From Infirmifilum sp. (GTDB lineage: Archaea; Thermoproteota; Thermoprotei; Thermofilales; Thermofilaceae): 29,942 nt of DNA. The stretch lies in contig JBEULP010000096.1 of NCBI GenBank assembly GCA_041287245.1, positions 1-29,942 on the forward strand. Reading direction: 5' to 3'. A model generated the notes under the pieces. The model saw only the letters and a program-made list of their open reading frames with translations, was not told the DNA's origin and searched no databases. The translations under genes were made by a program, and so were the position numbers. Below are positions 1 through 15,574 of this stretch, in pieces. How positions within the stretch are numbered: the first letter of the stretch is position 1; each line of letters opens with the position of its first letter.

Positions 1-38
1 CCCATCGAGTACCGGGCGCTCCACCTTACAGATCTCAC
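1..38 (-). CDS. ptsH: 5' end of a gene running off the left edge; probably phosphocarrier protein HPr
   Basis: GTG at 38-36 overlaps the ptsI stop (GTGA coupling) and reads MRSVRWSARYSMG. Gly at codon 13 matches HPr G13-L14-H15 spacing. HPr is the only PTS component otherwise missing. The diagnostic His lies outside the window. Confidence 0.4.
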   Translation of the reverse strand, partial: MRSVRWSARYSM

Positions 39-1753
39 TCATAAAAGCTTATTCCACTCTGATTAAGGATTTTCCGGGCCCACTCCACAACCTCCTCTAC
101 AGTCTGTGTCTGCATTAAGACAGCATGTTCTCTCTCACGGAGTTTTCTCATATCCAGCCTCTTCAAGATATACTTGACCTTCCCGACAAACTGTGGGGAC
201 ACGCTTAAGCTCTCAACTCCTAAGGTAAGCAACACTGGAATTGCCAAAGGCTTAGAGGCAGCCTCACCGCAGACCTCGATTTCAGCTCTACCCTTCACGG
301 AGTTTACGGCTAGAGAAATAAGCCTTAGAACAGCAGGGTTTAGCTCATTGTAAAGGTAGCCTACTAGGCTGTTCCCCCTGTCGGCCGCCAACACGTATTG
401 GGTGAGGTCGTTCGTGCCGAAGCTGATAAAACCAAGCCCGCCCTTCCCCACGATTTCTCCCGCTAGGAGCGCGCTAGCAGGCGTCTCAACCATGACTCCA
501 AGCTCCAAATCCCCTGTTTTTACTCCGGCGGAGCTAAGCCTCTCACGCTCCCGCATGACTATTCTCCTAAAATAGTCCACCTCCTCTACTGTGCTGACCA
601 TGGGGAGCATCAGCCTCACCTTCCCGTGAAAAGAGGCCCTCAGCAACGCGCGTACAAGGGGGAGAAGTAGATCCTCCTCATGCTTGAAGAGAAGCCTCGC
701 CCCTCGAAGCCCCAGTTGAGGGTTCTCCTCACTGGGCAGCTCGATAAAGGGGACAGGCTTGTCGCCACCTATATCGGGAGCTCTTACGGTAAGAGGCTTC
801 TCGCCCAGTATTTGGGCGGCTTTCGAGAAAAGGTTGTATAGCTCCTCCTCATCTGGAGGGGAGGAGCGCTCCATATAGACGAATTCTATCCTGAAGAGCC
901 CCACCCCGCCGCACCCGTATTCGCCGAGAATTCTCAGCTCTTCAAAGCTTCCCACGTTGCAGTAGACGTTGACTCTAGACCCGTCCAAGGTAACTGCGTC
1001 GCTCTTAGCCTCTTGCGTAAAAGCCCTTAAGAGCATCTGATACTCTCCTGCCATACGAGCATATCTTCTTAACTCTTCACCGCTCGGCTCCACAACGACG
1101 TATCCGTTCAGACCATCTATCACAGTGTTTGCACCCTCGGTGACGCCTTCAAGGCGCAGGTTTCCAGCTATAACGTACGGTATTCCCCTTAGACGGGCTA
1201 GGATTGCTACATGCGACGTGACGCCGCCTTCTCTGGTTGCCAGCCCCTCAAGGCCGCTATTCGCAAGCTCTAGAAACTCGATGGGGTCTACCTGCTCTGC
1301 AAGGACTATCTTATATTCCCCGCCTATGCCCCTAGACCCCTGCCCCTTTATCAGGAGAACCAGTCTTGAAGCGAGGTCCTGTAGATCCTGGGCCCTCATG
1401 GCGAAAAGCTCGCTGCCCTGCCTGAGCATATCGCTGTACTTCTGGTATACCTGCCGCACAGAATACGCCGCGGTGTAGCCGGCGTTTGATATCAGATCAA
1501 GAGACTCGGAGATTATCGAGTCAAGCATTAGAAGCTGCGCGTCTACAATCTCCTGCTCCTGTCTAGGAAGCAGGCTCTTAATCTGTACAAGCCTTTCCTC
1601 CAGGGCTCTACCAGACGCTCGAAGCTTCTCAGCTTCAGTCTCCGGTTCTCTAGTCTTCTCCTCAGGGATGCTACCTAGAACATCTACTCTCTTCAATACG
1701 TGGGCCTTGCCAATCGCGATTCCAGGTGAGGCAACAATGCCTTTTGCTTGCAC
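35..1753 (-). CDS. ptsI: PTS Enzyme I (phosphoenolpyruvate-protein phosphotransferase)
   Basis: 572 aa with phospho-His motif GGVTSHVAILAR, plus GVGLFRIEF, DIGGDK, EENPQLGLRG, GVMVETP, SFGTNDLTQY and VCGE. Confidence 0.97.
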   Translation of the reverse strand: MQAKGIVASPGIAIGKAHVLKRVDVLGSIPEEKTREPETEAEKLRASGRALEERLVQIKSLLPRQEQEIVDAQLLMLDSIISESLDLISNAGYTAAYSVRQVYQKYSDMLRQGSELFAMRAQDLQDLASRLVLLIKGQGSRGIGGEYKIVLAEQVDPIEFLELANSGLEGLATREGGVTSHVAILARLRGIPYVIAGNLRLEGVTEGANTVIDGLNGYVVVEPSGEELRRYARMAGEYQMLLRAFTQEAKSDAVTLDGSRVNVYCNVGSFEELRILGEYGCGGVGLFRIEFVYMERSSPPDEEELYNLFSKAAQILGEKPLTVRAPDIGGDKPVPFIELPSEENPQLGLRGARLLFKHEEDLLLPLVRALLRASFHGKVRLMLPMVSTVEEVDYFRRIVMRERERLSSAGVKTGDLELGVMVETPASALLAGEIVGKGGLGFISFGTNDLTQYVLAADRGNSLVGYLYNELNPAVLRLISLAVNSVKGRAEIEVCGEAASKPLAIPVLLTLGVESLSVSPQFVGKVKYILKRLDMRKLREREHAVLMQTQTVEEVVEWARKILNQSGISFYE

Positions 1754-1985
1754 ATGTTTGAGGGTCGTCGCGGGTAAAAAAGCTTATGGAACAACTTGAA
1801 ACGATAAGTTTTCCCTGCTTGTACTAATACACCGTTAGTGTTTCAATGCTACTTATCCCTGGCTGTTCCTTTTAGTAGGCCCGGGTCTGCTTCCAGCACC
1901 GGCGGAAGGATGGGGGCTTAAGCCTGTAAAGGGCATTGTTACAGAACCTTTTTTACCGCCCCGGACTCTTATTATCTCGATTGCA

Positions 1986-3134
1986 ATGCGGGTTGTCATT
2001 AAGGGGGGGAGGGTTTTAACCCCGTATGCGGATTTAGGAATAAAGGATGTTCTCATCGAATCGGGGAGGATAGCAAAGATAGGTGACGGTCTGGTCGGGG
2101 ATAGGACAATCGATGCATCGGGGCTCCTCGTGGCTCCCGGCTTTATAGACACGCATTTCCACGGCTACGGGGGCGTTGACTTTACGCTTGCCAGCCCAGA
2201 AGAGATTCTGGAGGTTTCTCGCCGGATCACAAGGCACGGCGTGACAGGCTTCCTCGCCTCTGTAGTCGCAGCTCCCCACGACACCTTGCTTAAAGCCTGT
2301 ACGAGTATAGCTGCCGCGGCCTCGGGTTGGAGGAGTCATGTGGGGGCGCGTGTCATAGGCGTGCACCTTGAGGGCCCTTATCTCAACCCCCAGAAGAAGG
2401 GGGCTATGGACGCTAAATACTTTAAACACCCATCCCCCCAGGAGCTGGTTGAGTTTGCCGATGCCTCGAAGGGGTTCCTTAAACAGATTACTGTAGCGCC
2501 AGAGCTTCCCGGCTCCGAGGAATTTATAAGGGCTGCGGCTTCTCGCGGCATCGTCGTCAGCCTAGGGCATAGTGAGGCGACCTTTGAGGAGGCTTTGAGG
2601 GCCGTGTTGGCAGGTGCTTCAAAGGCTAACCACATTTTCAACCAGATGCGGCAGTTCCACCACCGCGAGCCGGGTCTGGCTATGGCGCTTCTAGAACAGG
2701 AGAATGTCTACATCGAGATGATTTCCGACTTTATACACCTTCACCCTGGGACGATGCGGTTGGTCGCCAGGACAGCAGGTCCAAGCAGGATCGTTTTAAT
2801 AACTGACGCGGTCGCCGCGACAGGACTCCCAGATGGCGAGTACACCCTGGGAGGCCTCAAAATCATCGTGAAGAACGGGGTTTCGCGTTTACCCGACGGT
2901 ACGATAGCGGGAAGCACCCTAACCCTTGACAGAGCAGTTGCAAACATGGTTAAACTAGGTTTTTCCGTGGCGGACGCGATTAGAATGGCGTCCACAAACC
3001 CTGCACAGAGCCTGGGGCTAGGCAGAGAGTATGGCGCCATTGCGCAAGGCTATGCCGCGGATCTCGTTCTCCTGAACGAGAAGCTCGAGGTGGAGAAAAC
3101 CCTAGTGGAGGGCGTTGAAGTCTATAGTAGGTGA
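1986..3134 (+). CDS. nagA: N-acetylglucosamine-6-phosphate deacetylase
   Basis: PGFIDTHFHG, HLEGPY, TVAPE, LGHS, HIFNQM, ITDA, IAGSTLT and NPA motifs. Confidence 0.95.
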   Translation: MRVVIKGGRVLTPYADLGIKDVLIESGRIAKIGDGLVGDRTIDASGLLVAPGFIDTHFHGYGGVDFTLASPEEILEVSRRITRHGVTGFLASVVAAPHDTLLKACTSIAAAASGWRSHVGARVIGVHLEGPYLNPQKKGAMDAKYFKHPSPQELVEFADASKGFLKQITVAPELPGSEEFIRAAASRGIVVSLGHSEATFEEALRAVLAGASKANHIFNQMRQFHHREPGLAMALLEQENVYIEMISDFIHLHPGTMRLVARTAGPSRIVLITDAVAATGLPDGEYTLGGLKIIVKNGVSRLPDGTIAGSTLTLDRAVANMVKLGFSVADAIRMASTNPAQSLGLGREYGAIAQGYAADLVLLNEKLEVEKTLVEGVEVYSR

Positions 3135-3138
3135 CAAC

Positions 3139-4968
3139 ATGGGCGGGTTTTTCGCGGCAGTCTCCCGTTCTAATACAAACGTTATCCCGAAGGTCATAGA
3201 GGGCCTGAAGAGGCTACGGTTTAAGGGTTATGACAGCACGGGAGTCGCCTTAGTGCAAGATGGCGTGCTAAGCATCCACAAGGACGTGGGCTGGGTTGAC
3301 CTCGTCGTCGAAAAGCTCGGCTTAGAGAACCTCACGGGCAGCGTTGCTCTGGGTCACACTAGATACGCTACTCACGGTAGGCCTACTACGGAAAACTCTC
3401 ATCCGTTTTCAGACTGCTGGGGTAGGGTAGCGGTGGCCGGGGACGGCTCTCTAGGGAACTATGAGAGGCTGAAAGACATGGTTCTTATGAGCGGCCACAA
3501 GCTGCAGTCTAGGAGTGATTTCGAGCTGCCTGCGCACCTCCTAGAAGAAATGTTGGAGAAAGAGCAGGCCTTACAACAGGCTCTAGCCAGCCTCGAGACA
3601 CAGCTCGAGGGGTTTTACTCGCTGGCTGTGTTGGAGGCGTACACGTCGAAGATCGGAGCATACTCGAACTCGCTCCCCCTTTATGTCGGCGTATCGAAAG
3701 ACGCTTTCTACCTTACAAACGTTATGACTGCTCTCGCGGGGTTTGCAGAAGACTACATAGTCGTTGACCCCCATGTGATCGCAGTTATCTCTAGCGACGG
3801 TGTGAGGTTTTACAGGGGTGGAGTTGAGCTTCCCACGCCCGTACAACAGCCCCTAAGGGTGGATCCAAGTCTTGTCGACAAAGGCGGTTTCCAGCACCAC
3901 ATGTTACGGGAGATTTACGAGGCACCATTATCGCTTCTAAGATCTCTCTACACGATCCAAGAGAAATACTTGCAGTTGGCTGCGAGGCTTGTATTGGGAG
4001 CGGACAATATTTACATCATCGCGAATGGAACAAGTCTCCACGCCGGAATGGTTGCCTCCTATTACCTCTCAGAGCTCGTAGGTATAAGCCCCGTGGTTAC
4101 AAGTGCGGCTGAATTCCCGCTCTACTATGTTGAGAACGTAGGGCCTGGAAGCCTCGTTATAGCTATATCACAGTCGGGGGAAACTGGAGATGTTCTCTCA
4201 AGCTTATATGAGGCTAAGCTTAGAGGAGCCACGATCCTGGGCCTAACAAACTATATTGGTTCAAGGCTTGCGCGTCTCTCAAACGTTTACCTCCCCATCG
4301 GGGCTGGACCCGAACTTGCAGTCCCCGCAACCAAGACATTTACTTCCACGCTTCTAGTCCTCTATCTTACAGCACTTAAAGCCTCTCAAGAAGCAGGGAA
4401 GACGAGTCCCAGCAATTACCAGGAGAAGATTCAATCAATCAAAGAAACAGCTACCCGTCTCTCCGAGGCGGTTACACGTTTAGATGAAGAGAGCAGGAGG
4501 GCCGTAAAACTCGTTAAGGAGTGCCGAGGAGGATACGTCGTATCTAGAGGAATAACTTACCCGCTAGCCCTAGAAGCGGCACTAAAGCTGAAGGAGGCCT
4601 CATACTTCCACGCGGAAGGAGTAGAGGCTGGCGAGTTTAAGCATGGACCATTCGTCCTCGTCGAGAACGGGTTTTTCACAGGCTTTATTATGCCAGCTGA
4701 AAAACTCTCCGCAGAGGCCACATATCCTCTCATCGCGGCTGCTGTCGACGCCGGCGCCTCAGTAGTGGTTTTCGGATTCGAAGGAGACACAAGTCTATCC
4801 CAGATACAAAGCGATAGATACGCTTTTGTGAAGACACCGGTTACGGAGAGGCACCTAGCGCCTATAGCTTTCTCGTTGCCATTACAACTCTTCGCCTATA
4901 GGCTAGGAGTGGAGCTGGCCAGACCGATAGATACGCCCAGATACTTGACGAAGGCTGTGCTCAGATAA
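3139..4968 (+). CDS. glmS: GlmS-like protein (Ntn glutaminase domain + 2 SIS domains) with degenerate glutaminase site; likely hexosamine-6-phosphate deaminase/isomerase
   Basis: ATG at 3139 follows a GGTGA RBS. GYDSTG, GHTRYATHG, ISQSGET, VPATKTF, ALKLKE, GEFKHGP and PRYLTKAV are present, but the N-terminus is MGGF rather than MCGI. Confidence 0.9.
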   Translation: MGGFFAAVSRSNTNVIPKVIEGLKRLRFKGYDSTGVALVQDGVLSIHKDVGWVDLVVEKLGLENLTGSVALGHTRYATHGRPTTENSHPFSDCWGRVAVAGDGSLGNYERLKDMVLMSGHKLQSRSDFELPAHLLEEMLEKEQALQQALASLETQLEGFYSLAVLEAYTSKIGAYSNSLPLYVGVSKDAFYLTNVMTALAGFAEDYIVVDPHVIAVISSDGVRFYRGGVELPTPVQQPLRVDPSLVDKGGFQHHMLREIYEAPLSLLRSLYTIQEKYLQLAARLVLGADNIYIIANGTSLHAGMVASYYLSELVGISPVVTSAAEFPLYYVENVGPGSLVIAISQSGETGDVLSSLYEAKLRGATILGLTNYIGSRLARLSNVYLPIGAGPELAVPATKTFTSTLLVLYLTALKASQEAGKTSPSNYQEKIQSIKETATRLSEAVTRLDEESRRAVKLVKECRGGYVVSRGITYPLALEAALKLKEASYFHAEGVEAGEFKHGPFVLVENGFFTGFIMPAEKLSAEATYPLIAAAVDAGASVVVFGFEGDTSLSQIQSDRYAFVKTPVTERHLAPIAFSLPLQLFAYRLGVELARPIDTPRYLTKAVLR

Positions 4969-4975
4969 AGCTAAG

Positions 4976-6217
4976 ATGAACAAGATGTTGAGAGCAGGCT
5001 GTGGAAAAGCAATCATTACCCCCGAAGACCCCAAGGGTCACATCCTAGCGGGGTATATCAGGCGGAAAGGGGTCTCCCTAGGGGTCCACGACGACATCTA
5101 TGTGAAAACGCTAATTCTAGAAACTGGGGAGGAGAAGGTCGTTATAGCTAGCTTCGACCTCCTAGGCATTGACGAGCACCTCTACGAATATTCTCATCAC
5201 GTTGCCCGGGAAATAATGGGGGATGAGACGGTACTACTTGTTGCAGGAACACACACGCACTCAGCCCCCGCTACACCCTTCCAATCCCCCCTTCTTACAT
5301 TCGGCTACAGGGCCTTTAGCAAAGATTATTTTGACTACATCCTGGAATCCTTCGAGGACGCGGTCGTTCAAGCAGAGAAGAGTCTTTCACCAGTTAGATT
5401 ACAGATGACTCGCTCCAAAATACTAGGCGTGGCGACCGACCGTGAGGATCCTTCTCGTGAAATCGATGACATCGCCTCACTAATCGTCATGTCATCTACC
5501 CACGGGGAACGATGCGGCTTCCTACACTACGCCGTCCACCCCACAGTGCTAGGTCCAGACAATCTCTACATATCACGAGACTTGGTTGGCTATGCGGCTG
5601 ATTATCTCGAGAAGCACCTAGGGCTGAAAACCTGTCTTTTCCTAAACGGCGCGGCTGGAAACGTCTCCACAAGATTTGTCAGGCGCCAACAGAGCTTCGG
5701 CGAGGCGGAGCGTCTAGGCACACTGCTTGCAGAACAAGTCGCTGAAAATATTCCGGTTAACTCCCGCGATTGGACGGAAGCCGTCAGCTTGCAAATCCAG
5801 CAGCTCCCCGTGGAGATTAGGCTTAAAGCCCCCCTCAGGAAGCTTGAAGAGGCCTCACAGCTCCACATTGAGCAGCGGCCAGAAGAGGGGAGGAAAGCCG
5901 AAGCTGTTGCCGAAGGCGTCGAGCTAATCCAGCGGCTCGCGGAACTGGAAGATTTTCCCACCCATGCGAGAACGGTGATTTCCTTCCTGAGAATTTCAGA
6001 CATCTTCCAGAGCGTGTGGCTGCCCTTCGAGACCCCGTCAACCCTTTCTCTGGAGCTCCGGGAAGCCCAAGCTATACCTACGCTAGTGGTTTCATACGCT
6101 AATGGCTACTTCGCATACATCGCTCCAAGCCACAGCAAGGGCTACGAGAAGGTTTTTGAGCTTATTGAAGACGAGGACAGAAAGAAAATATTTAAGATGA
6201 TTCGAAAGCTGCTGTAA
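4976..6217 (+). CDS. Neutral/alkaline ceramidase-like metallo-amidase
   Basis: GVHDDIYVK, GTHTHSAP, YAVHPT, ISRD, NGAAGNVS and YANGY motifs; no signal peptide; 7 nt after the glmS-like gene. Confidence 0.75.
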   Translation: MNKMLRAGCGKAIITPEDPKGHILAGYIRRKGVSLGVHDDIYVKTLILETGEEKVVIASFDLLGIDEHLYEYSHHVAREIMGDETVLLVAGTHTHSAPATPFQSPLLTFGYRAFSKDYFDYILESFEDAVVQAEKSLSPVRLQMTRSKILGVATDREDPSREIDDIASLIVMSSTHGERCGFLHYAVHPTVLGPDNLYISRDLVGYAADYLEKHLGLKTCLFLNGAAGNVSTRFVRRQQSFGEAERLGTLLAEQVAENIPVNSRDWTEAVSLQIQQLPVEIRLKAPLRKLEEASQLHIEQRPEEGRKAEAVAEGVELIQRLAELEDFPTHARTVISFLRISDIFQSVWLPFETPSTLSLELREAQAIPTLVVSYANGYFAYIAPSHSKGYEKVFELIEDEDRKKIFKMIRKLL

Positions 6218-6272: not shown

Positions 6273-6789
6273 TTGGAAGGAAAATACGTCTTATCTCTCG
6301 ATGAAGGAACCTTTTAAAATGGCTCTGGAGAAGGCTCGTGTGGAACCCAAGGATGTGGCTGCTATAGGCGTCACCAACCAGCGGGAAACTACGATAATTT
6401 GGGATAAGAGGACTGGCAAGCCCGTCTATAATGCAGTGGTATGGCGGTGGAGGAGGACAGCGGAGGTCCAAGTGGCAGAACTAAGAGTCGATGGTGGGGC
6501 CGCTAAAAAACGACTTCCTCATCCAGTTCCAAGCGGATATCCTTGGCGTTAGGGTTATCAGACCGGTGATACTTGAGACTACAACCCTTGGAGCTGCTTA
6601 TCTCGCAGGTCTCGCAGTGGGGTATTGGAAGGATCAGGGTGAAATCGCTAAAATGTGGAAGATGGAAAAGGAATTCCACCCACAGAGGGATGAGGCGACC
6701 AGGGAAAACTCTATGCCGGGTGGAAAGAGGCTGTAAAGAGATCCTTAGAATGGGCTAAAATGCTTAAAGAGATTGGGTTATCCGAATAA
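6273..6789 (+). pseudogene. glpK: Glycerol kinase remnant with two internal deletions and frameshifts
   Basis: Pieces in order: [15 protein letters not shown], then [32 protein letters not shown], then [10 protein letters not shown], then [31 protein letters not shown], then [18 protein letters not shown]..stop. About 170 codons remain versus roughly 500 for intact GlpK. Confidence 0.95.
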
Positions 6790-6824
6790 TTTTTATCAAG
6801 ACCAGGTTTAGGATGTAGGTTAAG

Positions 6825-8333
6825 ATGGAAAGAAAAAGAGTTGTCATTATCGGGGCAGGAGTTGTGGGTGCTTCAATAGCCAGGGTGTTAAGTCAGTTCA
6901 ATGAGTTGGAAGTATACTTGCTAGAAAAAAATCCCGATGCGGGAATGGGGGTAAGTAAAGCCAACACCGGAATTATCCACCCTGGTCATGAGGACAGCCC
7001 GGAGGAAGATCCGCTAAGGGCTAGGCTTTGCGTCAAAGGAAACAGGCTATGGCGGCAATGGGTCAAAGAACTGGGAATACCTGCGAAATTCCCCGGAGAA
7101 CTAATGATAGCGCTGGAGGAAGAGGATATGAAGATCGCAGAGCACTATCTCGAGCTTGCCCAGAAAAATGGCGTCCCGGGGGTTAGGCTCGTAGATAGCG
7201 AGGAATTAGTGAAATTGGAACCTAATGCAAACCCGGGTGCTGCAGGAGCTTTATGGGCGCCTACCGCAGGGGTAATGGCTTCTCCAATGGCAGCCCCTGC
7301 AATAGTGGAAAACGCAGTCGCTAATGGCGTCAAATTTCTTCCAGAAACAGAAGTAAAAGGCATAAAGGTGGGGAACGGGGAAGTAAAGGGTGTAGAAACA
7401 AACAATGGATTTCTTGAAGCAGACATAGTGGTAAACGCAGCTGGTTTGTACGCGGACAAGATTTCCAGAATGGCCGGCATAGATCACTTCACGATACGCC
7501 CAAGAAAGGGGGAATACTATGTGTTTGACGATGATGCTGAGCCAAAGGTCAAAAGGATACTACATCAGACCCCCACACCCAAGTCGAAGGGAGTCTACGT
7601 GATCACCGAGATGAACGATGGGGTTATGATAGGTCCTAGTGCCCAAGACTTGCCCGAAGAGGCTAGAGAGGATACGTCCACTACCAAAGAGGGCCTCGAC
7701 TTTGTTTGGGAATGGGCTCAAAAACTCGTCAAGAAGTTGCCGCCAAAGGACAAGGTCATACGTACGTTTGCTGGGTTAAGACCTGAACCCCCAGGGGCGA
7801 GATGGATTATAGAATCCTACGACGACCCTTGGGGATTTATAAACGTCGCTGGAATAAGATCCCCCGGACTCACTTCGGCACCGGCGATAGCATACTATGT
7901 GGTTGAGGAGCTTATGCAGAAGAAGCTCGATTTAAGGCTTACTAAGAGAGCCCACTGGAACCCTTACAGAAGTGTGCTCCGGTTTAACATGTTGTCAAGA
8001 GAAAAGCAAAATGAGTTGATAAGACAAAACCCCTCTTATGGAAACGTCGTGTGTATGTGTCGGTTGATCACGGAGGGGGAAATAGTAGATGCTATCCACC
8101 GGATGAAGGAAATGGGTGTTAAAACGATAACCCTTGAGGGGGTAAAAATGAGAACTGGAGCTATGGGTGGGACATGCCAGGGGTCGTACTGCCGGGTTAG
8201 AATTGCTAGGATAATTGCCAGGGAAATGAACACGCCTCTTTGGGCAATTTCATTGAGAGGTAAAGGCTCAGAATACGGTATTGGTGACATTAAGGTTCTG
8301 CTAAGGGAGGATGGGGGGAAGAGATATGCATAA
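6825..8333 (+). CDS. glpA: FAD-dependent glycerol-3-phosphate dehydrogenase-like subunit with C-terminal BFD-like [2Fe-2S] domain
   Basis: IIGAGVVG, SKANTGIIHPG, PRKGEY, FAGLRP, GIRSPGLTSAPAIA, CMC...CQGSYC; directly downstream of glpK. Confidence 0.85.
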   Translation: MERKRVVIIGAGVVGASIARVLSQFNELEVYLLEKNPDAGMGVSKANTGIIHPGHEDSPEEDPLRARLCVKGNRLWRQWVKELGIPAKFPGELMIALEEEDMKIAEHYLELAQKNGVPGVRLVDSEELVKLEPNANPGAAGALWAPTAGVMASPMAAPAIVENAVANGVKFLPETEVKGIKVGNGEVKGVETNNGFLEADIVVNAAGLYADKISRMAGIDHFTIRPRKGEYYVFDDDAEPKVKRILHQTPTPKSKGVYVITEMNDGVMIGPSAQDLPEEAREDTSTTKEGLDFVWEWAQKLVKKLPPKDKVIRTFAGLRPEPPGARWIIESYDDPWGFINVAGIRSPGLTSAPAIAYYVVEELMQKKLDLRLTKRAHWNPYRSVLRFNMLSREKQNELIRQNPSYGNVVCMCRLITEGEIVDAIHRMKEMGVKTITLEGVKMRTGAMGGTCQGSYCRVRIARIIAREMNTPLWAISLRGKGSEYGIGDIKVLLREDGGKRYA

Positions 8334-9576
8334 CGACTATGATGTGGTAGTCATTGGAGGAGGGCCCGCCGGGCTAGCTGCTGCGATAAGGGCGAAAGAA
8401 CGTGGCTTAAGGGTTCTCCTGGTCGAAAACAGGGAGACCCTGGGAGGTATACCCCTCCAATGTGTTCACCCCGGATTCGGCCTCCACTACTTTAAAGAGG
8501 ATCTTACAGGAACCGAGTTTATCTACCGCTTCATAAACAAGTTCCTGGATATGGAGATTGAACACTACACCGGGGCCCACGTAGCGTCGATGGAGGTACT
8601 TTCTGACTTAGAGAAAAGATTAACGGTGATAACGTCGAAGGGGGTTCTAGATGTAACAAGCACCACGATCATCTACGCCGCAGGGGCAAGGGAAAGGCAT
8701 CCCTTTGAGATAGGAATTACGGGGCACAGACCTGCAGGGGTCTATACTGCTGGCGAGGCTCAAACAATGATGGACATTTACGGAGTAATGCCGGGTAAAG
8801 AAATCGTCATCGTGGGCTCTGGGGACGTAGGACTGATAATGGCGAGGCGCTTCACCCTAGAAGGAGCCCATGTAAAGGCTGTTATAGAGGCAATGCCCTA
8901 TCCAGGCGGACTGACAAGAAACATAGTACAGTGCCTGCAGGACTTCGGGATCCCATTGTATCTTAGCCATGCCGTTATACGAATTGAAGGGACAAAAAGG
9001 GTGGAAAAAGTTATCGTCGCCAAGGTTGATGAGAACCTGAAGCCGGTGGCTGGGACGGAGAAGGAAATACCCTGCGACACCGTTATAATATCCGCTGGTC
9101 TTGTGCCGTATCTAAAGTTGCTGGAAAAGGCAGGGGTTATGTTAGACCCCGCAACAAAAGGTCCGGTGGTGAATGAGTATCTTGAGACTAATATTCCGGG
9201 AGTATTTGTGGCAGGAAACGCTCTAGTGATAAACGATCTAGTCGATTATGTTGTTGAGCAGGGAGAACTGGCCGCTGAGGGTGCGTATCTCTTTGTGCAG
9301 AACAAAGGGATTCCCACCAAGAGGTGGAAACGGATCGTTAAAGGCAGGAACCTCCGACTAGTAGTCCCTCATTACGTGAGCGGAGACAATGATGTTGTTC
9401 TATACGCAAGAGTTCAAAAACCCGAAGAGAAAGTTAAGCTTCGTTTCCCGGAAATAGACAAGGAGGTAGGGCTCACATTTGTGAGACCAGAAGAAATGTT
9501 GAGGATTCAGCTCAGGAAAGATGAATTGGCACTAGCAAAAGACAAGATATCAATGGAGGTGGTTCCCCATGACTGA
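8326..9576 (+). CDS. NAD(P)/FAD-dependent pyridine nucleotide-disulfide oxidoreductase, partner of the G3P dehydrogenase
   Basis: VIGGGPAG, QCVHPGFG, GARER, GSGDVGLIMARR, GVFVAGN. ATG at 8326 overlaps the upstream stop. Confidence 0.88.
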   Translation: MHNDYDVVVIGGGPAGLAAAIRAKERGLRVLLVENRETLGGIPLQCVHPGFGLHYFKEDLTGTEFIYRFINKFLDMEIEHYTGAHVASMEVLSDLEKRLTVITSKGVLDVTSTTIIYAAGARERHPFEIGITGHRPAGVYTAGEAQTMMDIYGVMPGKEIVIVGSGDVGLIMARRFTLEGAHVKAVIEAMPYPGGLTRNIVQCLQDFGIPLYLSHAVIRIEGTKRVEKVIVAKVDENLKPVAGTEKEIPCDTVIISAGLVPYLKLLEKAGVMLDPATKGPVVNEYLETNIPGVFVAGNALVINDLVDYVVEQGELAAEGAYLFVQNKGIPTKRWKRIVKGRNLRLVVPHYVSGDNDVVLYARVQKPEEKVKLRFPEIDKEVGLTFVRPEEMLRIQLRKDELALAKDKISMEVVPHD

Positions 9577-9943
9577 GATTAGGCGTTTTAAAATCACATG
9601 TATTGTCTCTCCGCTCGGATGCGAGATTGAAGTGAAAATGGAAGGAGACAAGATCGTCGAGCTAACAGGGTTTAAATGCCCCAGGGGAAAGAATTATGCC
9701 ATAGAGGAGGTAACAGCCCCCAAGAGGGTGGTTATGAGCGTTTTAAAAGTGAAAAATGGTGACTTTCCAACAGTATCAGTAAAGACAGACAGAACGGTTT
9801 CCAAGGAGCTCATACCCGAGATCATGAAAGAGCTAGCTAAGATAGAAGTAGAAGCTCCGATTGAGATCGGACAGGTAATGGTGGAAAACATTGCCAACTC
9901 AGGAGCAAACATCGTGGCTACCCGACCTGTTAAAAAAGTCTGA
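9569..9943 (+). CDS. DUF1667-type small Cys-motif protein (third subunit of the G3P dehydrogenase cluster)
   Basis: TCIVSPLGC...KCPRG..YA..E...PKR, VSVKT, APIEIG, IVATR; GGAGGTGG RBS upstream. Confidence 0.85.
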   Translation: MTEIRRFKITCIVSPLGCEIEVKMEGDKIVELTGFKCPRGKNYAIEEVTAPKRVVMSVLKVKNGDFPTVSVKTDRTVSKELIPEIMKELAKIEVEAPIEIGQVMVENIANSGANIVATRPVKKV

Positions 9944-10186: not shown

Positions 10187-11314
10187 TTAGGCCGCAACAT
10201 CTACGGGGGAGCCCGTTAGGCTTGACCTGTAAAAACCGTCCAGCAAAACCTGGCTGCGAAGGCCGTCCTTGAGATCTGGTACCGGGCTCTCTTTTATCCC
10301 AGCTACGTTCTCAAGGAAATGTTTCAGCAGGATCAGGTACGAGTAGACCCAGCCCTCGAAGCTCTTCGGAGCTGGCCACGTGAGCCAGGGGTAGGTCTCC
10401 TCGAACCCCCCTGTGATCTTCTCGGTTCGGCTGTTTTCCCGTTTAAACAAGTAGAGGGTCTGAGGCTCCGCTATAGTAAACCTAATCCCCCCCTTCGAAC
10501 CATAGATCTCTATGCGCATTTGTTCCTCAAAGCCAGGTGAGACCTTAGACGCTTCGACGCTCCCCGCGGCACCCGATTCATATTCAACTATCGCGAAGCC
10601 AAGGTCCTCTGTGTCAACCCTTACTCTCTGCTTCGACGCGGGATCCCACCTCTCCTTTAGGAGTGTATATCCCCTCCCCCAGATCCTGTTTATCCTCTGA
10701 AGCGTTAGGTACTCTGCGAGGTCGAGCGCATGAACCCCCAGATCTGCTAAAACGCCACCCCCAGCCTCTCGCTTATTCATCCTCCACTCGTAAGGTGTAT
10801 CCTCATAGGCGTGTTTAGCATGGGCTATGACAGCTCTAAACTCGCGGATCTCCCCGATCTCGCCTCTGGATATAATGTCGCGCGCCTGGATTGCGGCCGG
10901 GAGGAAACGCGATACGAGGCATATAGCACCCCTCCTTCCGAGCTTTTCAGCTCTAGCCACCACTTCACGGGCCTCCTCTAAGGAGACAGCAAAGGGCTTT
11001 TCCACGACGATGTCGGAGCCAGACTCTAAGGCTCTAACTGCATATGGAGCATGAGTGTTGTTTGTCGACGAGATTACCACGACATCGAGATCCCCTTTGA
11101 AAAAGGCCGACTCATCTGTAGTCCACTCTCGAAACCCGTATTGTCTCGCGAAAGCCTCGATCTTTCCGGGGCTTCTACTCATCGCACGGGCCATCTCCAC
11201 TTCCGGGAAGCCTCTCTCCCTCACAGTGAACCTTAAAGCGTTTAAGGCCCACGCGACCGCACCGGCAGACCAGCCCGACCCTATTAGGCCTACTCTCAGC
11301 TTCACCCCCAACAC
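10187..11314 (-). CDS. Gfo/Idh/MocA-family NAD(P)-dependent sugar oxidoreductase
   Basis: VGLIGSG, NNTH, VVEKP, GGGVLADLGVHALD, IYGSKG. Confidence 0.92.
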   Translation of the reverse strand: MLGVKLRVGLIGSGWSAGAVAWALNALRFTVRERGFPEVEMARAMSRSPGKIEAFARQYGFREWTTDESAFFKGDLDVVVISSTNNTHAPYAVRALESGSDIVVEKPFAVSLEEAREVVARAEKLGRRGAICLVSRFLPAAIQARDIISRGEIGEIREFRAVIAHAKHAYEDTPYEWRMNKREAGGGVLADLGVHALDLAEYLTLQRINRIWGRGYTLLKERWDPASKQRVRVDTEDLGFAIVEYESGAAGSVEASKVSPGFEEQMRIEIYGSKGGIRFTIAEPQTLYLFKRENSRTEKITGGFEETYPWLTWPAPKSFEGWVYSYLILLKHFLENVAGIKESPVPDLKDGLRSQVLLDGFYRSSLTGSPVDVAA

Positions 11315-11320
11315 CCTGTT

Positions 11321-11824
11321 TTAGAACTTTAGGCTCCGGATTTTCTCCTCCATGTCCACCGGCTTTGGAGGAAAGTCCGGAAGCTGCTGGTAGTAGAGCT
11401 TCACACCCATATCCAGTATCCTAAGCAGGGCCTTATGATCATCTGGGCCTATGTCGAAGGTTTTTTCGATTTTTACACGGCCAGCCCTGTAGCCCATCTG
11501 TCCTAGAAGCACATACTCAACCCGGACGCCCGACTTCTCGAGGAAGTTTGCAACGTCCACGGGATTCTCGAATAGCAGGAGGACTTTCTCGCTGTTGTTC
11601 ATGGATTTTGCTTTTTGAGCTGCTTCGTCTACTTTGAGAACGGCGACGGAGATCCCGGGCGGGGCTAGCATTATCTGAAGCTGTTTAAGAGCCGGGTTAC
11701 TTGCAATCTTGTCGTTAACCACCCAGATTGAGGTGGCGCCGAACTTTTTGGTCCAGGCGGCTGTAACCTGACCGTGAATAAACCTGTCGTCAATGCGAAT
11801 AAAGATGTTCTGTTTAGAAGACAT
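11321..11824 (-). CDS. PTS mannose/fructose/sorbose-family IIB component
   Basis: RIDDRFIHGQV phospho-His motif; ATG at 11824 follows an AGGTGA RBS. Confidence 0.95.
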   Translation of the reverse strand: MSSKQNIFIRIDDRFIHGQVTAAWTKKFGATSIWVVNDKIASNPALKQLQIMLAPPGISVAVLKVDEAAQKAKSMNNSEKVLLLFENPVDVANFLEKSGVRVEYVLLGQMGYRAGRVKIEKTFDIGPDDHKALLRILDMGVKLYYQQLPDFPPKPVDMEEKIRSLKF

Positions 11825-11841
11825 ACAATTCACCTGCTGAT

Positions 11842-12297
11842 TTAGCTTTTAACCTTTTTGATAAGTTGTCTAATAAGTGATTTCTCCTCGGACTTCCCCT
11901 CAGCAGCAATTTCTTGAAGCTCTTTTCCAACAAAGCCTCTAACCCCCTCCCTCCCAGCCTTCCAGACGCTGGACATAAGTTGTTGAAAGTCCCCCGTGTC
12001 GTTCGATAGGAGCTCAATCACCATAGCCATGTTGAACCCTGTCAGGACTGCCCTAGCTTTTCCCTCCTGTAGAAGCATGAGCGCAGCTCTGCTTGGAGTT
12101 CCCCCAAACAGGTCTACGAGGATAACTGTGTCATTACCTGCAACTTTTGCTAGCTTGTCATAGTAATTCTCAAGGCTTTCGCCCTCGACTAGCTCTACAC
12201 ACGTGGCTTTTTCACGGACGGAAACGCCTAGAATCATTGCCACTGCGTTGATCATCTCACACCCGAGATTACCGTGAGAAGCCAGGACGACCCTCAA
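11842..12297 (-). CDS. PTS mannose-family IIA component
   Basis: VVLASHG (phospho-His), LVDLFGGTP, TGFNMAM. Confidence 0.95.
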   Translation of the reverse strand: MRVVLASHGNLGCEMINAVAMILGVSVREKATCVELVEGESLENYYDKLAKVAGNDTVILVDLFGGTPSRAALMLLQEGKARAVLTGFNMAMVIELLSNDTGDFQQLMSSVWKAGREGVRGFVGKELQEIAAEGKSEEKSLIRQLIKKVKS

Positions 12298-12304
12298 GCC
12301 CCGT

Positions 12305-13189
12305 TCACCTCAAATGTGACATAGCAATCCGCTTATAAGTGTGTCTAACCCCGCGGACAGCAACCGAAAGCTCGAGTATATTTTCAGGAACAGCAATCCC
12401 CATCGAGTACCCAGAGTCGCCGATGTGGTGAATATCGCACCCACATTCTTTAGAGTGGAGAGCAATATACCTTATTACCTCTCTTTGCGCACCTTCTTGA
12501 GATGTCCCAATAGTGCACATTGCTAGGGAATCATATTTTTCAGCAAGGGCAACAGCCTTTGAAACACTTTCAGGAGTAGCGCCTGGGACGGTAAAGGGGG
12601 CTGGTACCAGGATGCCGTCAGCGCCTCTCACCAGGACCTCCTCTATTAAGCTTAGATCAAACATTTTTTCAGTCTTTAAGCCTCCGCTGTGCATTTTTCC
12701 GCCGAACAATAACGCCTTATCTTGTACCACCTGTCTAGCTTTATCGACGCCCTCAGCTATCCGCCTCCACGTGACCCCTAAACCAGGGTTCCCTGTAACA
12801 ACAATCAAGCGTGAACCGAGCTTCAAGCTTCCAAGGATGGTGTCCTCGGATAATCTTCTCCCCTCTGGTATTAAGCCCGCCTCTACAGGCTCAAGGTTAT
12901 TCCCGACGAAACGCTGGGTAAACTGGGATATTCCCCTAATTGTAGCGTATTCACTAGGTACACCCTCGACCTTAGGGTTTAGAACATCATACATGTTCAA
13001 GATTATAATATCCGCACCAAACCTCGCCGCCAGCTCTACGTTTGACGTACCGTCTACAAGCGGAGTAGACGTTGCTACCACCTCAACCGCAACTACCCTA
13101 CCCTCAGAAGATTTAACCGCTTCTTTGAAGCCTTTTGGCTCAATATGTTCGAGATCCTTCCCAGTTAGATCTAAGACCCTTTTCGGCAT
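12305..13189 (-). CDS. Conserved uncharacterised TIM-barrel-like protein of PTS loci
   Basis: Alternating beta/alpha pattern with GADIIILN, GNNLEP, TGNPG, GKMHSGG, GADGILVPAP, GTSQEGA, HHIGDSG and RGVRHTY. First gene of the IIA-IIB-oxidoreductase operon. Confidence 0.7.
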   Translation of the reverse strand: MPKRVLDLTGKDLEHIEPKGFKEAVKSSEGRVVAVEVVATSTPLVDGTSNVELAARFGADIIILNMYDVLNPKVEGVPSEYATIRGISQFTQRFVGNNLEPVEAGLIPEGRRLSEDTILGSLKLGSRLIVVTGNPGLGVTWRRIAEGVDKARQVVQDKALLFGGKMHSGGLKTEKMFDLSLIEEVLVRGADGILVPAPFTVPGATPESVSKAVALAEKYDSLAMCTIGTSQEGAQREVIRYIALHSKECGCDIHHIGDSGYSMGIAVPENILELSVAVRGVRHTYKRIAMSHLR

Positions 13190-13281
13190 ATCTCAACAAC
13201 TTTTTACTTTATATCAATGGCATATAATATTAGCTTAAAACGAAACATTTATATAAAAAAAAAGTGTCGCAAATTTATTGT
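13190..13281. promoter_or_regulatory. Divergent archaeal promoter region
   Basis: AT-rich; CGAAAC followed by TTTATATA at about 13241-13255 upstream of ATG 13282, with TATA-like sequence on the minus strand upstream of 13189. Confidence 0.65.
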
Positions 13282-14883
13282 ATGACAACAATAGGACCAG
13301 TAGAAGTGGGAATTCTCGGACTCCTAGCCTTCATCTTCGGCCTTGACTACATCTGGGTCACACCTCTAGGCATCTGGCGCCCAGTGGTTGCAGGCACGCT
13401 CACAGGCCTGATTCTAGGAGACCCCATTACGGGGTTGGTGGTAGGCTCACTGCTCGAGTTTGTCTTTGCAGGGCTTTTCACCATTGGTGGGGGAACGGTT
13501 CCCGAAGCTGCCACCGGAACAATTGCATCTGTGGTCGTTGCCGTCGCAACGGGGCTTAGGCCGGAGGCCGCAGTTCCTCTAGCCATCCCAGTAGCTGTGT
13601 TAACCATGAACCTCGAAATCGTAGTAAGGTCGTTTGACGCAGTGTTCACTCACTGGGCGGACGCCGAGATAGAGCGCGGAAACTACGATAAAATCCCCCT
13701 CATAAACATCTTAGGCGCGTTTCCTTGGGGGCTTAGCCGCGCCATTCCAATATGGGCGTTCGTAGGTGCACTTGCAATAAACCCCCAGGGAGTAAAGTCC
13801 TTCATCGATGCCCTCCAGGTTGTTCAAATCGGCCCTCTAACGGTAAGGTTCTGGGATGCGATGGCTGTAGCCGGCGCCGTACTGCCGGCGCTAGGTGCTG
13901 CAATAATGATGAAAATGATGCTCTCCAGGGAGACTGTGGCTTTCTACATCCTCGGTTTCGCATTAGCCGCATACCTAAAGCTTAGTCTCCTCGCCATCGC
14001 CCTCGTTGCCGGCTCAATAATCTTTGCGCTATATCTCTTCACCCACAGAGAAGCCTTTGAACAATTAAGGCTGGGGGGTGGTGCCACAACCGCGGGGACA
14101 GCAACCTCAAAGGACTTCTTCAGATGGTTCGGCCTCTCGTGGTTCATCCAGTCCTCTTGGAACTATGAGAGAATGATGGGTACGGGCTTTGCGCACGGCA
14201 TGCTCGAGATCGAGAAGAAGCTCCGCAAAGATCCGGAGGAGCTTAAGTCTTGGATGAGGCTACACAACGAGTTTTACAACACAGAACCACACGTCCACAA
14301 CGCAATCTATGGTATGGTTATATCTCTAGAGGAACAGGGCGCAGACCAGGACGTCATACGAGGCGTCAAGACAGCCTTAATGGGGCCTTTCGCCGGACTT
14401 GGAGACTCAATGCTGTGGTTCACTATACTCCCCATCGCCTTCCTCCTCGGGGCATCGCTGGGGGTTGAGAGAAACCTACTAGGACCACTCGTAGCGTTGG
14501 TGATCTGGATACCTGTCTCCTGGGCTATCAAGTACTACAGTCTCGTATACGGCTACAAGTACGGTTTATCGCTCTCAGAGGTGCTAAAGGGAGACGTCCT
14601 TAAGATCTTCCGGGAAGCCGTAATGGCCTTTGCAATGGCCGTAATAGGAGGGATTACCGCAACCTACGTCCGAGCAACTACGCCGATTATTCTCGCACAG
14701 TATGCTGGCCACGCGATTAAGCTACAGCCAATACTTGACCAGCTTATGCCCTCACTACTCCCATTGCTCTTCACACTCTTCACCTACTGGCTAATCAAGA
14801 ATAAGGGCTACAGCTACGGGAAAGCAGTGATAGTCCTCTTCCTACTCGCCTTCGTCCTCGCAATCCTAGGAGTCCTCGGATAA
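13282..14883 (+). CDS. Fused PTS mannose-family IIC-IID permease
   Basis: IIC motifs RPVVAGTLTGLILGD..GSLLE and GAVLPALG, then IID motifs QSSWNYERMMGTGF, HNEFYNTEP and KTALMGPFAGLGDS in one ORF. Confidence 0.95.
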   Translation: MTTIGPVEVGILGLLAFIFGLDYIWVTPLGIWRPVVAGTLTGLILGDPITGLVVGSLLEFVFAGLFTIGGGTVPEAATGTIASVVVAVATGLRPEAAVPLAIPVAVLTMNLEIVVRSFDAVFTHWADAEIERGNYDKIPLINILGAFPWGLSRAIPIWAFVGALAINPQGVKSFIDALQVVQIGPLTVRFWDAMAVAGAVLPALGAAIMMKMMLSRETVAFYILGFALAAYLKLSLLAIALVAGSIIFALYLFTHREAFEQLRLGGGATTAGTATSKDFFRWFGLSWFIQSSWNYERMMGTGFAHGMLEIEKKLRKDPEELKSWMRLHNEFYNTEPHVHNAIYGMVISLEEQGADQDVIRGVKTALMGPFAGLGDSMLWFTILPIAFLLGASLGVERNLLGPLVALVIWIPVSWAIKYYSLVYGYKYGLSLSEVLKGDVLKIFREAVMAFAMAVIGGITATYVRATTPIILAQYAGHAIKLQPILDQLMPSLLPLLFTLFTYWLIKNKGYSYGKAVIVLFLLAFVLAILGVLG

Positions 14884-14893
14884 AATAAATTTT

Positions 14894-15574
14894 TTATAAT
14901 CTTTTTTCTTCCCCTAGAATTTTTTCAATAGCCTCTACAACCCCTTCCCCATAACTCTTATTTGTGATGAGATCAGCTTCGCCCTTCAACTTATCATTGG
15001 CGTTCGCGACTGCAACCTTAACACTCGCCGCCCGGAAGAGAGGCAGGTCGGAGGGGCTGTCGCCGATAGCGACGATTTGGTGGTCCTCCCAGCCCGTGAG
15101 TCTGAGAAGTCTCCTGAGCCCGACCTCTTTATCCAGATTCTTGGGCGCGAAGACATGAGTCCTTGAGCCAACTTTTTTAATCTCGATGGGATCATAATGA
15201 GCTATCTCAGCTAGTGTGTCCAACGCTTGAGGGAGAGATTCTTCGTCGAAGTAGTATAATAATTCTCCCCGGTTCACCGCCGGGATTCTCGCGGACAACA
15301 TACTTATGATGTCGTTCCAACGCCTCGACTTGAATACTATTAGATCCATGGGAGGAAGGAACAGGACGCCGCCCAGCTCAAGGATCAATGCGTCGAAGAT
15401 GTCTAAGCTTGTGAAGTTCTCGATATCATTGAGGGGTCTTGCTGTAGCCAGGACAAACTTAAACATGGACTGGCTCTTCAGAATAGAAATCCGCGTTAAA
15501 ACGCTCTTTTCGGGCGGGTTATTCTCCCGTGCTAGAGTCCCGTCGTAGTCTACTACGAAAAGCAACCGACTCAT
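14894..15574 (-). CDS. HAD-IIB (Cof/SPP/PGP-like) phosphatase
   Basis: DYDGTL, ATAR, DKEVG, IGDSPSD, VANA. Confidence 0.9.
   Translation of the reverse strand: MSRLLFVVDYDGTLARENNPPEKSVLTRISILKSQSMFKFVLATARPLNDIENFTSLDIFDALILELGGVLFLPPMDLIVFKSRRWNDIISMLSARIPAVNRGELLYYFDEESLPQALDTLAEIAHYDPIEIKKVGSRTHVFAPKNLDKEVGLRRLLRLTGWEDHQIVAIGDSPSDLPLFRAASVKVAVANANDKLKGEADLITNKSYGEGVVEAIEKILGEEKRL

What the first reader, a model, noticed from the sequence alone, without database searches (positions are those of the whole stretch)
1..15574. Archaeal mannose-family PTS wired to an unresolved amino-sugar catabolic pathway
Seen: EI, IIA, IIB, fused IIC-IID and a probable HPr start cluster with NagA, a GlmS-like protein, a ceramidase-like amidase, a Gfo/Idh/MocA oxidoreductase, an unknown TIM-barrel-like protein and a HAD phosphatase. 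Known: PTS is rare in archaea (haloarchaea; also noted in Thermofilum), and plain GlcNAc use needs only NagA plus a deaminase. Inference: the three extra enzymes suggest the substrate is a modified or epimeric N-acyl-hexosamine that is oxidised, epimerised or deacylated before entering NagA and then fructose-6-phosphate. I know of no characterised pathway with this set.
Basis: partly seen in the sequence, partly recalled or inferred. Interest (0 to 1): 0.8.

Follow-up and report, generated by a model that had tools for sequence, protein, structure and literature searches.

The report
Archaeal amino-sugar PTS with orphan enzymes
This hot-spring archaeon carries a bacterial-type sugar-uptake system, already reported for its genus, joined to enzymes that likely break down N-acetylglucosamine and to several untested enzymes that likely convert related amino sugars into the same route.

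Summary
The genes are real, with three corrections. HPr is not in the window; it lies complete on the overlapping contig, facing EI. A 3.7-kb decaying glycerol cassette, found at this place only in this genome, splits the cluster. A NagS-like sugar isomerase beside HPr was missed. The island is conserved in all 7 congeners, whose named relatives are Thermofilum/Infirmifilum; a PTS in T. pendens was already in print by 2009. The GlmS-like protein lacks both glutaminase catalytic residues while a canonical GlmS sits elsewhere, so it is likely the deaminase: GlcNAc-6P to GlcN-6P to fructose-6P. The ceramidase-like amidase, NagS-like protein and DUF7916 barrel recur beside amino-sugar PTS genes in other archaea and bacteria, so they are not hitchhikers. 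But two archaea with this PTS lack DUF7916 and the Gfo, and most DUF7916 lineages have no such neighbours. Best reading (0.5): a GlcNAc core plus a funnel for C2/C3-isomeric or other N-acyl hexosamines, ManNAc first. No substrate was tested. This scan noted the same island before in other genomes of the genus. New variant of a known kind; interest 0.5.

The parts
1..34 (.). Spacer between the convergent 3' ends of HPr and EI; no HPr start. HPr (C86:79181-79468, +) and a NagS-like SIS gene (C86:77781-78524, -) lie just outside the window on the overlapping contig and belong to the system
   Evidence: an independent-run contig also runs 267 bases past the window start
35..1753 (-). PTS enzyme I (His181, Cys495 motifs)
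   Evidence: TIGR01417 397 bits, cut-off 341.7; motifs
1986..3134 (+). NagA, N-acetylglucosamine-6-phosphate deacetylase family, metal and catalytic motifs present
   Evidence: TIGR00221 312 bits, cut-off 225.65
3139..4968 (+). Full-length GlmS paralogue with Cys1 replaced by Gly and Asn98 by Asp, isomerase site kept; likely glucosamine-6-phosphate deaminase
   Evidence: canonical GlmS at C29
4976..6217 (+). Neutral-ceramidase-fold metal amidase (PF04734), HTHS, HPT, Glu352 and Arg156 motifs kept; substrate untested
6301..9943 (+). Inserted glycerol cassette, not part of the system: two glpK fragments, GlpA-like FAD oxidase, FAD oxidoreductase, DUF1667
   Evidence: absent between amidase and Gfo in the congeners; GC 0.485 against 0.529 and 0.509
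10187..11314 (-). Gfo/Idh/MocA NAD-dependent sugar oxidoreductase, nearest characterised relatives scyllo-inositol/L-glucose and levoglucosan dehydrogenases
11321..11833 (-). Mannose-family PTS IIB (His20 motif)
   Evidence: PF03830
11842..12297 (-). Mannose-family PTS IIA (His8 motif)
   Evidence: PF03610
12305..13189 (-). DUF7916 TIM-barrel protein with invariant Glu36, Glu100, His167, His255, Asp258; reaction unknown
13248..13258 (.). TATA-like TTTATATA readable on both strands in an AT-rich gap between the divergent DUF7916 and IIC-IID genes (consensus match only)
13282..14883 (+). Fused mannose-family IIC-IID permease of a clade of its own
   Evidence: PF03609 and PF03613; tree
14894..15574 (-). 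HAD-IIB phosphatase, genus-specific paralogue convergent on IIC-IID; weaker link to the pathway

Best explanation
The island likely imports N-acetylhexosamines by PEP-driven phosphorylation, likely sends GlcNAc-6-phosphate through NagA and a glutaminase-dead GlmS to fructose-6-phosphate plus ammonia, and likely uses its orphan enzymes to convert related N-acyl hexosamine phosphates into that route. Shown by sequence: all PTS parts with their phospho-acceptor motifs, an intact NagA, and a GlmS copy without Cys1 and Asn98 beside a second, canonical GlmS. Inferred (about 0.8): phosphoryl flow PEP > EI > HPr > IIA > IIB > sugar, deacetylation, then deamination-isomerisation by the GlmS copy. Inferred (about 0.5): the NagS-like SIS protein and/or DUF7916 interconvert C2 or C3 isomers (ManNAc-6P first, N-acetylallosamine-6P second), the ceramidase-fold amidase removes acyl groups that NagA does not accept, the Gfo does a C3 or C1 redox step that not all lineages need, and the HAD relieves sugar-phosphate build-up.
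For: Order conserved in the genus: DUF7916, IIC-IID, HAD, IIB and Gfo together in 7 of 7 congeners; amidase next to Gfo in 7 of 7 (one cut by a contig end); EI-NagA-GlmS block in 6 of 7. Cys1-Gly and Asn98-Asp in 8 of 8 cluster copies and in 5 of 5 other archaea that also hold a canonical GlmS; the altered copies form one clade, 100/100. A second family repeats the link: G400 has IIA, IIC-IID, IIB, amidase, SIS, NagA, HPr, EI in a row, G063 has IIC-IID, IIA, IIB, amidase. The eight archaeal amidases beside a mannose-type PTS fall in one clade, local support 96, apart from five paralogues. G047 joins DUF7916, a cellobiose-type PTS, a SIS deaminase-like gene, HPr, HAD, EI and the amidase. Bacterial L086 holds IIA, IIB, two NagS-like genes, amidase, HAD, SIS, NagA, two Gfo genes and DUF7916; L032, L034, L037, L043, L044, L087 and an E. 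coli plasmid put DUF7916 beside NagE-type GlcNAc permeases; plasmids put it beside hexosaminidases or AgaS-LacD. The SIS protein matches NagS at E 4.7e-48 and keeps its four essential residues; NagS binds GlcNAc-6P and ManNAc-6P (PMC12680351). NanE, the AGE-type epimerase and MurQ were not found in 5 of 5 genus genomes searched. NanE is the commonest secondary Pfam match of DUF7916, 30 of 75 members at E 0.05 or less, best 4.6e-6. The amidase fold occurs in a 752-residue Atlas cluster in which 39% of 116 members also carry the GlcNAc 2-epimerase family (a lead only).
Against: No activity or expression data. G063 and G400 have no DUF7916 or Gfo match. 19 of 34 other DUF7916 lineages show no test family nearby (4 of the 19 have short flanks), 6 more only a weak hint; DUF7916 copies in G073 and G152 have no PTS gene in the stretches fetched. 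The fold searches list no NanE among their top rows and single out no family. Three NagS homologues of 26-36% identity did not dehydrate GlcNAc-6P, so kept residues do not fix the reaction. E. coli K-12 already has NanE (control), so a DUF7916 gene on an E. coli plasmid fits a NanE role poorly. The permease groups with no reference of known substrate, and its best NCBIfam scores are to galactosamine/GalNAc subunits, all far below cut-off. The Listeria homologue sits in a D-allose cassette without amino-sugar genes.
Confidence: 0.5

Rival explanations
1. The PTS takes plain GlcNAc, and the extra enzymes are clean-up or repair functions for side products of sugar phosphates (heat dehydration products, wrong anomers, overflow), not steps for a second nutrient.
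For: DUF7916 closes an otherwise ordinary nagA-nagB-regulator-nagE run in L034 and L037 and follows PTS genes of four families, as a general helper would. It stands alone in most gut lineages. The core NagA plus altered GlmS is sufficient on paper.
Against: Five extra genes are kept in the genus, and the amidase and SIS recur with the PTS in another family. An amidase with its own PTS-linked clade is hard to need for plain GlcNAc.
Confidence: 0.22
2. The accessory set is a second, lyase-type route: the NagS-like protein dehydrates a HexNAc-6P to 6P-chromogen I, the amidase deacylates it, the enamine hydrolyses to 3-deoxyglucosone-6P, the Gfo oxidises C1 to give KDPG, and DUF7916 cleaves it to pyruvate and glyceraldehyde-3-phosphate.
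For: NagS chemistry and deacetylation of its product are shown in Streptomyces. The four activities needed match the four orphan folds. The Gfo's nearest solved relatives include an L-glucose dehydrogenase. G039 and G036, which have no DUF7916 match, carry a KD(P)G-aldolase-like gene beside SIS, HPr, EI and the altered GlmS; G039 adds a formamidase-like and two oxidoreductase genes. Aldolases are among the fold hits.
Against: Non-Streptomyces NagS homologues were inactive on GlcNAc-6P. No member of the DUF7916 alignment matched an aldolase family. DUF7916 occurs without SIS or Gfo beside nagE. The altered GlmS already gives a complete route. The G036/G039 permease seen is of the ascorbate type, so those genes may serve another sugar.
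Confidence: 0.1
3. The cargo is GalNAc or a neutral hexose such as mannose, and the amino-sugar genes serve it by the aga-type route or are only neighbours.
For: IIC and IID score best to AgaW and AgaD, IIA to AgaF. DUF7916 follows AgaS and LacD on an Enterococcus plasmid. One cultured genus member grows on mannose (PMC6965361).
Against: The IID lies outside the AgaD/AgaE clade (97) and the ManZ/Mpt clade (99). No AgaS- or LacD-like match was found in this genome at E 1e-8. G003 and G007 keep a separate GatZ-AgaS set.
Confidence: 0.1
4. The PTS imports a HexNAc glycoside, and the Gfo, helped by DUF7916, is an NAD-dependent phospho-glycosidase that frees GlcNAc-6P by 3-keto chemistry.
For: Glycoside 3-dehydrogenases (DgpA, BT2158-type) are among the Gfo's weaker matches. 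DUF7916 often lies beside disaccharide-type PTS genes and glycosidases. A genus paper calls an oxidoreductase near its CE9 gene GH109-like with unclear function (PMC4673724).
Against: No GH109 domain match. Mannose-family permeases mostly carry monosaccharides (recalled). G063 and G400 have no Gfo match.
Confidence: 0.08

Closest known systems
PTS of Thermofilum pendens, noted in genome papers (PMC2678158 passage seen; the 2008 genome paper was not held)
   Same: Same genus-level island; named T. pendens and Infirmifilum proteins are the closest homologues
   Different: The passages seen name only a PTS transporter; no substrate test or account of the accessory genes was found. This genome adds a glycerol insertion.
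E. coli manXYZ/nagE + nagA + nagB route; aga regulon (AgaVWEF, AgaA, AgaS)
   Same: Mannose-family PTS, deacetylase, then deaminase-isomerase to a ketose phosphate
   Different: Fused IIC-IID of a separate clade; deaminase role likely filled by a full-length glutaminase-dead GlmS; no NagB, NanE or MurQ found; four orphan enzymes
NagS GlcNAc-6P dehydratase of Streptomyces (PDB 9eol; PMC12680351)
   Same: SIS fold, about 94 of 238 aligned residues identical (counted), His53, Arg64, Glu94, Asp179 and Asn228 equivalents kept, NagA nearby
   Different: Below the 58.7% identity of true orthologues; Ser91 is Thr; tied to PTS genes, not to dmdR1; distant homologues were inactive on GlcNAc-6P
SIS-only glucosamine-6-phosphate deaminases (GlmD, NagB-II)
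   Same: GlmS-type isomerase site predicted to run as a deaminase
   Different: Keeps the whole N-terminal domain (609 aa); scores 61 and 116 bits against cut-offs of 580 and 430
Listeria lmo0734-0739 D-allose cassette (PMC5893763)
   Same: DUF7916 gene directly upstream of a PTS permease; the only experiment found on the family
   Different: Beta-glucoside-family PTS, RpiB and Rpe, no NagA; loss of the gene only slowed growth
D-glucosaminate PTS pathway (dga; recalled, not retrieved)
   Same: Mannose-family PTS followed by ammonia release and a TIM-barrel enzyme
   Different: No PLP lyase here, and DUF7916 has no Pfam match to an aldolase family

Membership tests
Mannose-family PTS | EI, HPr, IIA (PF03610), IIB (PF03830), IIC (PF03609), IID (PF03613) all present | tested here: met
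   HPr on C86
Mannose-family PTS | Phospho-acceptor His motifs in EI, HPr, IIA, IIB | tested here: met
   (motif identities recalled)
ManYZ/Mpt subfamily | IID inside the ManZ/Mpt clade | tested here: not met
   separate clade of 14 rows (100) outside the ManZ/Mpt clade (99); quick tree, deep forks open
Aga (GalN/GalNAc) subfamily | IID inside the AgaD/AgaE group and above NCBIfam cut-offs | tested here: not met
Fructoselysine/glucoselysine-type PTS | IID with the SIS-linked Listeria and Enterococcus permeases | tested here: not met
   (these references are labelled by their neighbours, not by experiment)
D-glucosaminate PTS | IID with DgaD; PLP lyase and DgaF aldolase | tested here: inconclusive
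   no DgaD reference in the tree; no PLP lyase in the cluster; no aldolase Pfam match
NagA (TIGR00221) | Score above cut-off; metal and catalytic residues | tested here: met
GlmS (glutamine-dependent synthase) | N-terminal Cys1 and oxyanion Asn98 | tested here: not met
   Gly and Asp in 8 of 8 cluster copies, although TIGR01135 scores 449 against 418
GlcN-6P deaminase | Deaminase activity | not testable with these tools
   isomerase-site motifs kept
NagS dehydratase | Essential His53, Arg64, Glu94, Asp179 | tested here: met
NagS dehydratase | 58.7% identity or more, Streptomycetaceae, dmdR1 synteny | tested here: not met
   about 40% identity; criteria
NanE (ManNAc-6P 2-epimerase) | PF04131 above cut-off for the window protein | tested here: not met
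   weak family-level matches only
NanE (ManNAc-6P 2-epimerase) | Structural match standing above other TIM barrels | tested here: inconclusive
   top Z 17.8 to 14.4 spread over many barrel families
Neutral ceramidase | Metal-amidase motifs of the N-terminal domain | tested here: met
Neutral ceramidase | Full length with C-terminal domain; equivalog score | tested here: not met
   413 aa; NF041649 27 bits against 1200
GH109 NAD-dependent glycosidase | GH109 C-terminal domain | tested here: not met
   only Gfo/Idh/MocA domains at E 0.001

The most novel reading that the evidence does not exclude
The island encodes an undescribed amino-sugar Entner-Doudoroff-like route: NagS-type dehydration of a PTS-made HexNAc-6P, deacylation by a ceramidase-fold amidase, oxidation to KDPG and cleavage by DUF7916. 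It would give first reactions to three widespread orphan families (non-Streptomyces UPF0309/NagS homologues, short PF04734 amidases, DUF7916) and run beside the NagA/GlmS route in archaea and in bacteria such as L086.
Probability: 0.1. Interest if true: 0.85.

Novelty: new variant of a known kind. Interest (0 to 1): 0.5.

Why it matters
No substrate test was found for any mannose-family PTS outside bacteria and haloarchaea in the papers searched, and Thermofilaceae depend on unknown components of other archaea's cells or broth (PMC6965361 passage). Naming the cargo would say what they scavenge. The island also gathers thermostable members of four poorly understood families in one testable set: a glutaminase-dead GlmS that still passes the synthase cut-off and so is likely mis-annotated, a NagS homologue outside Streptomyces, a short ceramidase-fold amidase, and DUF7916, which databases label 'HAD hydrolase' or 'PEP phosphonomutase' and which rides on Enterococcus and E. 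coli plasmids.

Tried and rejected
HPr start inside the window: rejected. HAD as a mere housekeeping phosphoglycolate phosphatase: not upheld, since it is 45-60% identical within the genus against 25-47% (mostly partial matches) elsewhere, sits by IIC-IID in 8 of 8 genomes, and 4 congeners hold a second, more distant HAD match; its part in the pathway stays unproven. Glycerol genes as part of the pathway: rejected. DUF7916 in sialic-acid operons: a NanA-like gene lies three or more genes away in one gut lineage only, dropped. The first genome-contig scan gave one real locus and two short chance matches. Fold searches gave only a generic TIM barrel, and neither NanE nor DgaF was listed; the Atlas gave only DUF7916. 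The sigma-70 promoter scan is not suited to archaea. No RNA holder was listed. The listed contig pieces do not bridge both ends of the glycerol insertion, though all 30 bins were covered in 3 runs of 1 study. A DegT-type gene near the G047 amidase was not pursued; its family is my reading of the sequence, not a scan. Paper searches listed no test of this PTS, of DUF7916 or of the altered GlmS; the library lacks most subscription papers, the 2008 T. pendens genome paper was not held, and no supplements were read. Tree: 140 rows, P0210 left out as a fragment, no DgaD reference. One search used the 80 best of 506 loci, so it is biased to close homologues. No complex was predicted.

Full report
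What is there. The window is contig C6 of G000, a 99.99% complete, 5% contaminated assembly. Its closest named proteins are from Infirmifilum and Thermofilum. Family scans confirm EI, NagA, a GlmS-like protein, a ceramidase-like protein, a Gfo/Idh/MocA oxidoreductase, IIB, IIA, DUF7916, a fused IIC-IID and a HAD, with the expected motifs (motif roles recalled). The HPr claim fails. C86 overlaps the window by 141 bases and carries a complete HPr that faces EI and ends 24 bases before base 1; the frame after EI stops after 33 residues. C86 also carries a 247-aa SIS protein 660 bases from HPr. Between amidase and Gfo lies a glycerol cassette with a broken glpK, lower in GC, not at this place in congeners; its oxidase is 66% identical to a gene of another genus and at most 40% to congeners'. 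Three runs of one study cover all 30 bins of 1-16500; they may be the source campaign.

Distribution. The IIC-IID protein matched 8 of 61 related genomes, all of the genus. PF03613 matched 9 of 401 genomes of the phylum: 7 of the genus plus G063 and G400 of another family. DUF7916 passed its cut-off in 9 of 251: 7 of the genus, G073 and G152; G047 was found later. In the 7 congeners Gfo, IIB, DUF7916, IIC-IID and HAD lie together in 7, the amidase adjoins the Gfo in 7 (G002 cut by its contig), and EI-NagA-GlmS in 6 (no NagA match in the 81% complete G002). The SIS gene is in 7 of 7, beside HPr in G001, G003, G004 and G005, elsewhere in G006 and G007.

The core route. The GlmS copy begins MGG instead of MCG and has GDG instead of HNG in 8 of 8 cluster copies, while the C-terminal isomerase motifs are kept (the C-terminal lysine motif in 7 of 8; the L031 copy diverges there) and a canonical copy sits on C29. 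Five other archaea hold both an altered and a canonical copy, and the altered ones form one clade. Cys1 is the glutaminase nucleophile (established knowledge), so this copy should not use glutamine; downstream of NagA, with no NagB match in the genome, it is likely the deaminase. With NagA above its cut-off this gives HexNAc-6P > GlcN-6P > fructose-6P. The permease does not name its sugar: the IID forms its own clade with five unnamed relatives and L033, outside the ManZ/Mpt, AgaD/AgaE, SIS-linked and lmo0024-type references (quick tree, no DgaD). A second, ascorbate-type IIC on C114 may share EI and HPr.

The accessory genes. The amidase is the most constant partner: adjacent to the PTS in the genus, in G400 and G063, in G047 beside EI and in bacterial L086. 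The eight archaeal copies beside a mannose-type PTS fall in one clade; the G047 and L086 copies do not. It keeps the metal-amidase motifs but lacks the ceramidase C-terminal domain; an Atlas cluster joins this fold to the GlcNAc 2-epimerase family in 39% of 116 members. The SIS protein matches NagS (E 4.7e-48, about 40% identity) and keeps its essential residues. In PMC12680351 (abstract, passages, sections 10 and 16 read) NagS dehydrates GlcNAc-6P and ManNAc-6P, but three homologues of 26-36% identity did not act on GlcNAc-6P. Other copies lie beside NamZ muramidase (G058), beside GatZ-AgaS (G003, G007) and behind a Listeria mannose-family PTS with CutC. DUF7916 folds as a TIM barrel (pLDDT 94) with no family-level match and weak NanE likeness. 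Among 37 lineages from 80 metagenome loci, 3 are of the archaeal type, 9 lie within 6 kb of NagA, NagB, NagE, SIS, MupG or the same Gfo, 6 show a weak hint and 19 nothing. On plasmids it follows a NagE above cut-off, hexosaminidases, AgaS-LacD or cellobiose-type PTS genes. I confirmed that the Listeria copy lies between rpiB and the beta-glucoside PTS, the place of lmo0737. In PMC5893763 (parts 2-3 of 4 and passages) leaving it out lowered growth on D-allose from 0.150 to 0.108, the same as leaving out the PTS (0.106); the primers join rpiB straight to the PTS start, so a polar effect is possible (my inference). The Gfo is nearest to scyllo-inositol/L-glucose and levoglucosan dehydrogenases, below all cut-offs. 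Against a fixed pathway: G063 and G400 have no DUF7916 or Gfo match.

Mechanism. The families converge on C2, C3 and the amide of a hexosamine 6-phosphate. NanE, the AGE epimerase and MurQ were not found in 5 genus genomes, so orphan proteins could fill such steps. I commit to a GlcNAc core with a funnel for isomeric or other N-acyl hexosamines, ManNAc first (0.5). Rivals: plain GlcNAc with repair enzymes (0.22), a NagS-type lyase route to KDPG (0.1; G036 and G039 carry a KD(P)G-aldolase-like gene in a parallel cluster), GalNAc or mannose (0.1), a glycoside (0.08). All steps beyond gene content and motifs are inferred.

What is known. PMC2678158 (passages) states that T. pendens has a PTS transporter; PMC6965361 (passages) mentions one PTS gene and lists growth on mannose but not chitin; PMC4673724 (passages) notes a CE9 esterase and an oxidoreductase of unclear function whose locus tags are three steps apart. 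PMC10154347 (passages) shows PTS-dependent GlcNAc use in Parageobacillus without the word 'hypothetical' in its main text; PMC9973855 (passages) added nothing. The 2008 genome paper was not held; that it placed the PTS beside NagA is recalled. Eight searches listed no test of these proteins. Earlier notes of this scan describe the same island, DUF7916 and the altered GlmS in other genomes; I had found the GlmS change, before reading that note, and took the lmo0737 lead from them.

Verdict. Real, conserved, known in outline, unresolved in substance: a new variant of PTS-linked amino-sugar catabolism. Interest 0.5; the lyase reading would merit 0.85 at about 0.1 probability.

Noticed in passing
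window 6301-9943: Inserted glycerol cassette with glpK reduced to two fragments; contigs of public runs show loose ends at 6935 and 6967 inside the GlpA-like gene, as an insertion in some strains would give
   Followed up: partly
G000:C114:617-2442: Second PTS enzyme II of the ascorbate/galactitol type (IIC and a IIA-like ORF) on a short contig; in G001 an 80% identical IIC sits between HAD and the phosphoribosyltransferase gene
   Followed up: partly
L208-L212 (G036, G039, G400, G063, G058): The Cys1-less GlmS clade extends across Thermoproteota, also in genomes without a mannose-type PTS match
   Followed up: partly
L224:1221-10001 (G047): An archaeal lactose/cellobiose-family PTS with DUF7916, SIS, HPr, HAD, EI and the amidase
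   Followed up: partly
L181, L182, L228 (G036, G039, G030): Archaeal EI and HPr with NagA, SIS or aldolase-like genes; ascorbate-type IIC and an LLM sugar-phosphate-dehydrogenase-like gene in G039
   Followed up: partly
L183:7832-9747 (G058): NagS-like SIS gene directly upstream of an exo-beta-N-acetylmuramidase NamZ in an archaeon, which hints at MurNAc use
   Followed up: no
L165:4480-9181 and L044:7095-10906: CutC lies with a mannose-family PTS and a NagS-like gene in Listeria, and with NagE and DUF7916 in L044, suggesting a sugar role for CutC
   Followed up: no
window 15645-20739: HTH-phosphoribosyltransferase-like gene, an ECF transporter whose 264-aa membrane subunit has no family match, and a 346-aa protein with no match, conserved next to the island in most congeners
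   Followed up: no
window 23906-29942: MFS permease whose start seems split over two frames at 23906-24133, GH1 beta-galactosidase, GalT and GalK: a galactoside cluster
   Followed up: no
L186, L018 (G007, G003): GatZ, AgaS-like SIS, a second NagS-like gene, BadF-type kinase and ascorbate-type IIC: a likely GalNAc module in two congeners
   Followed up: partly
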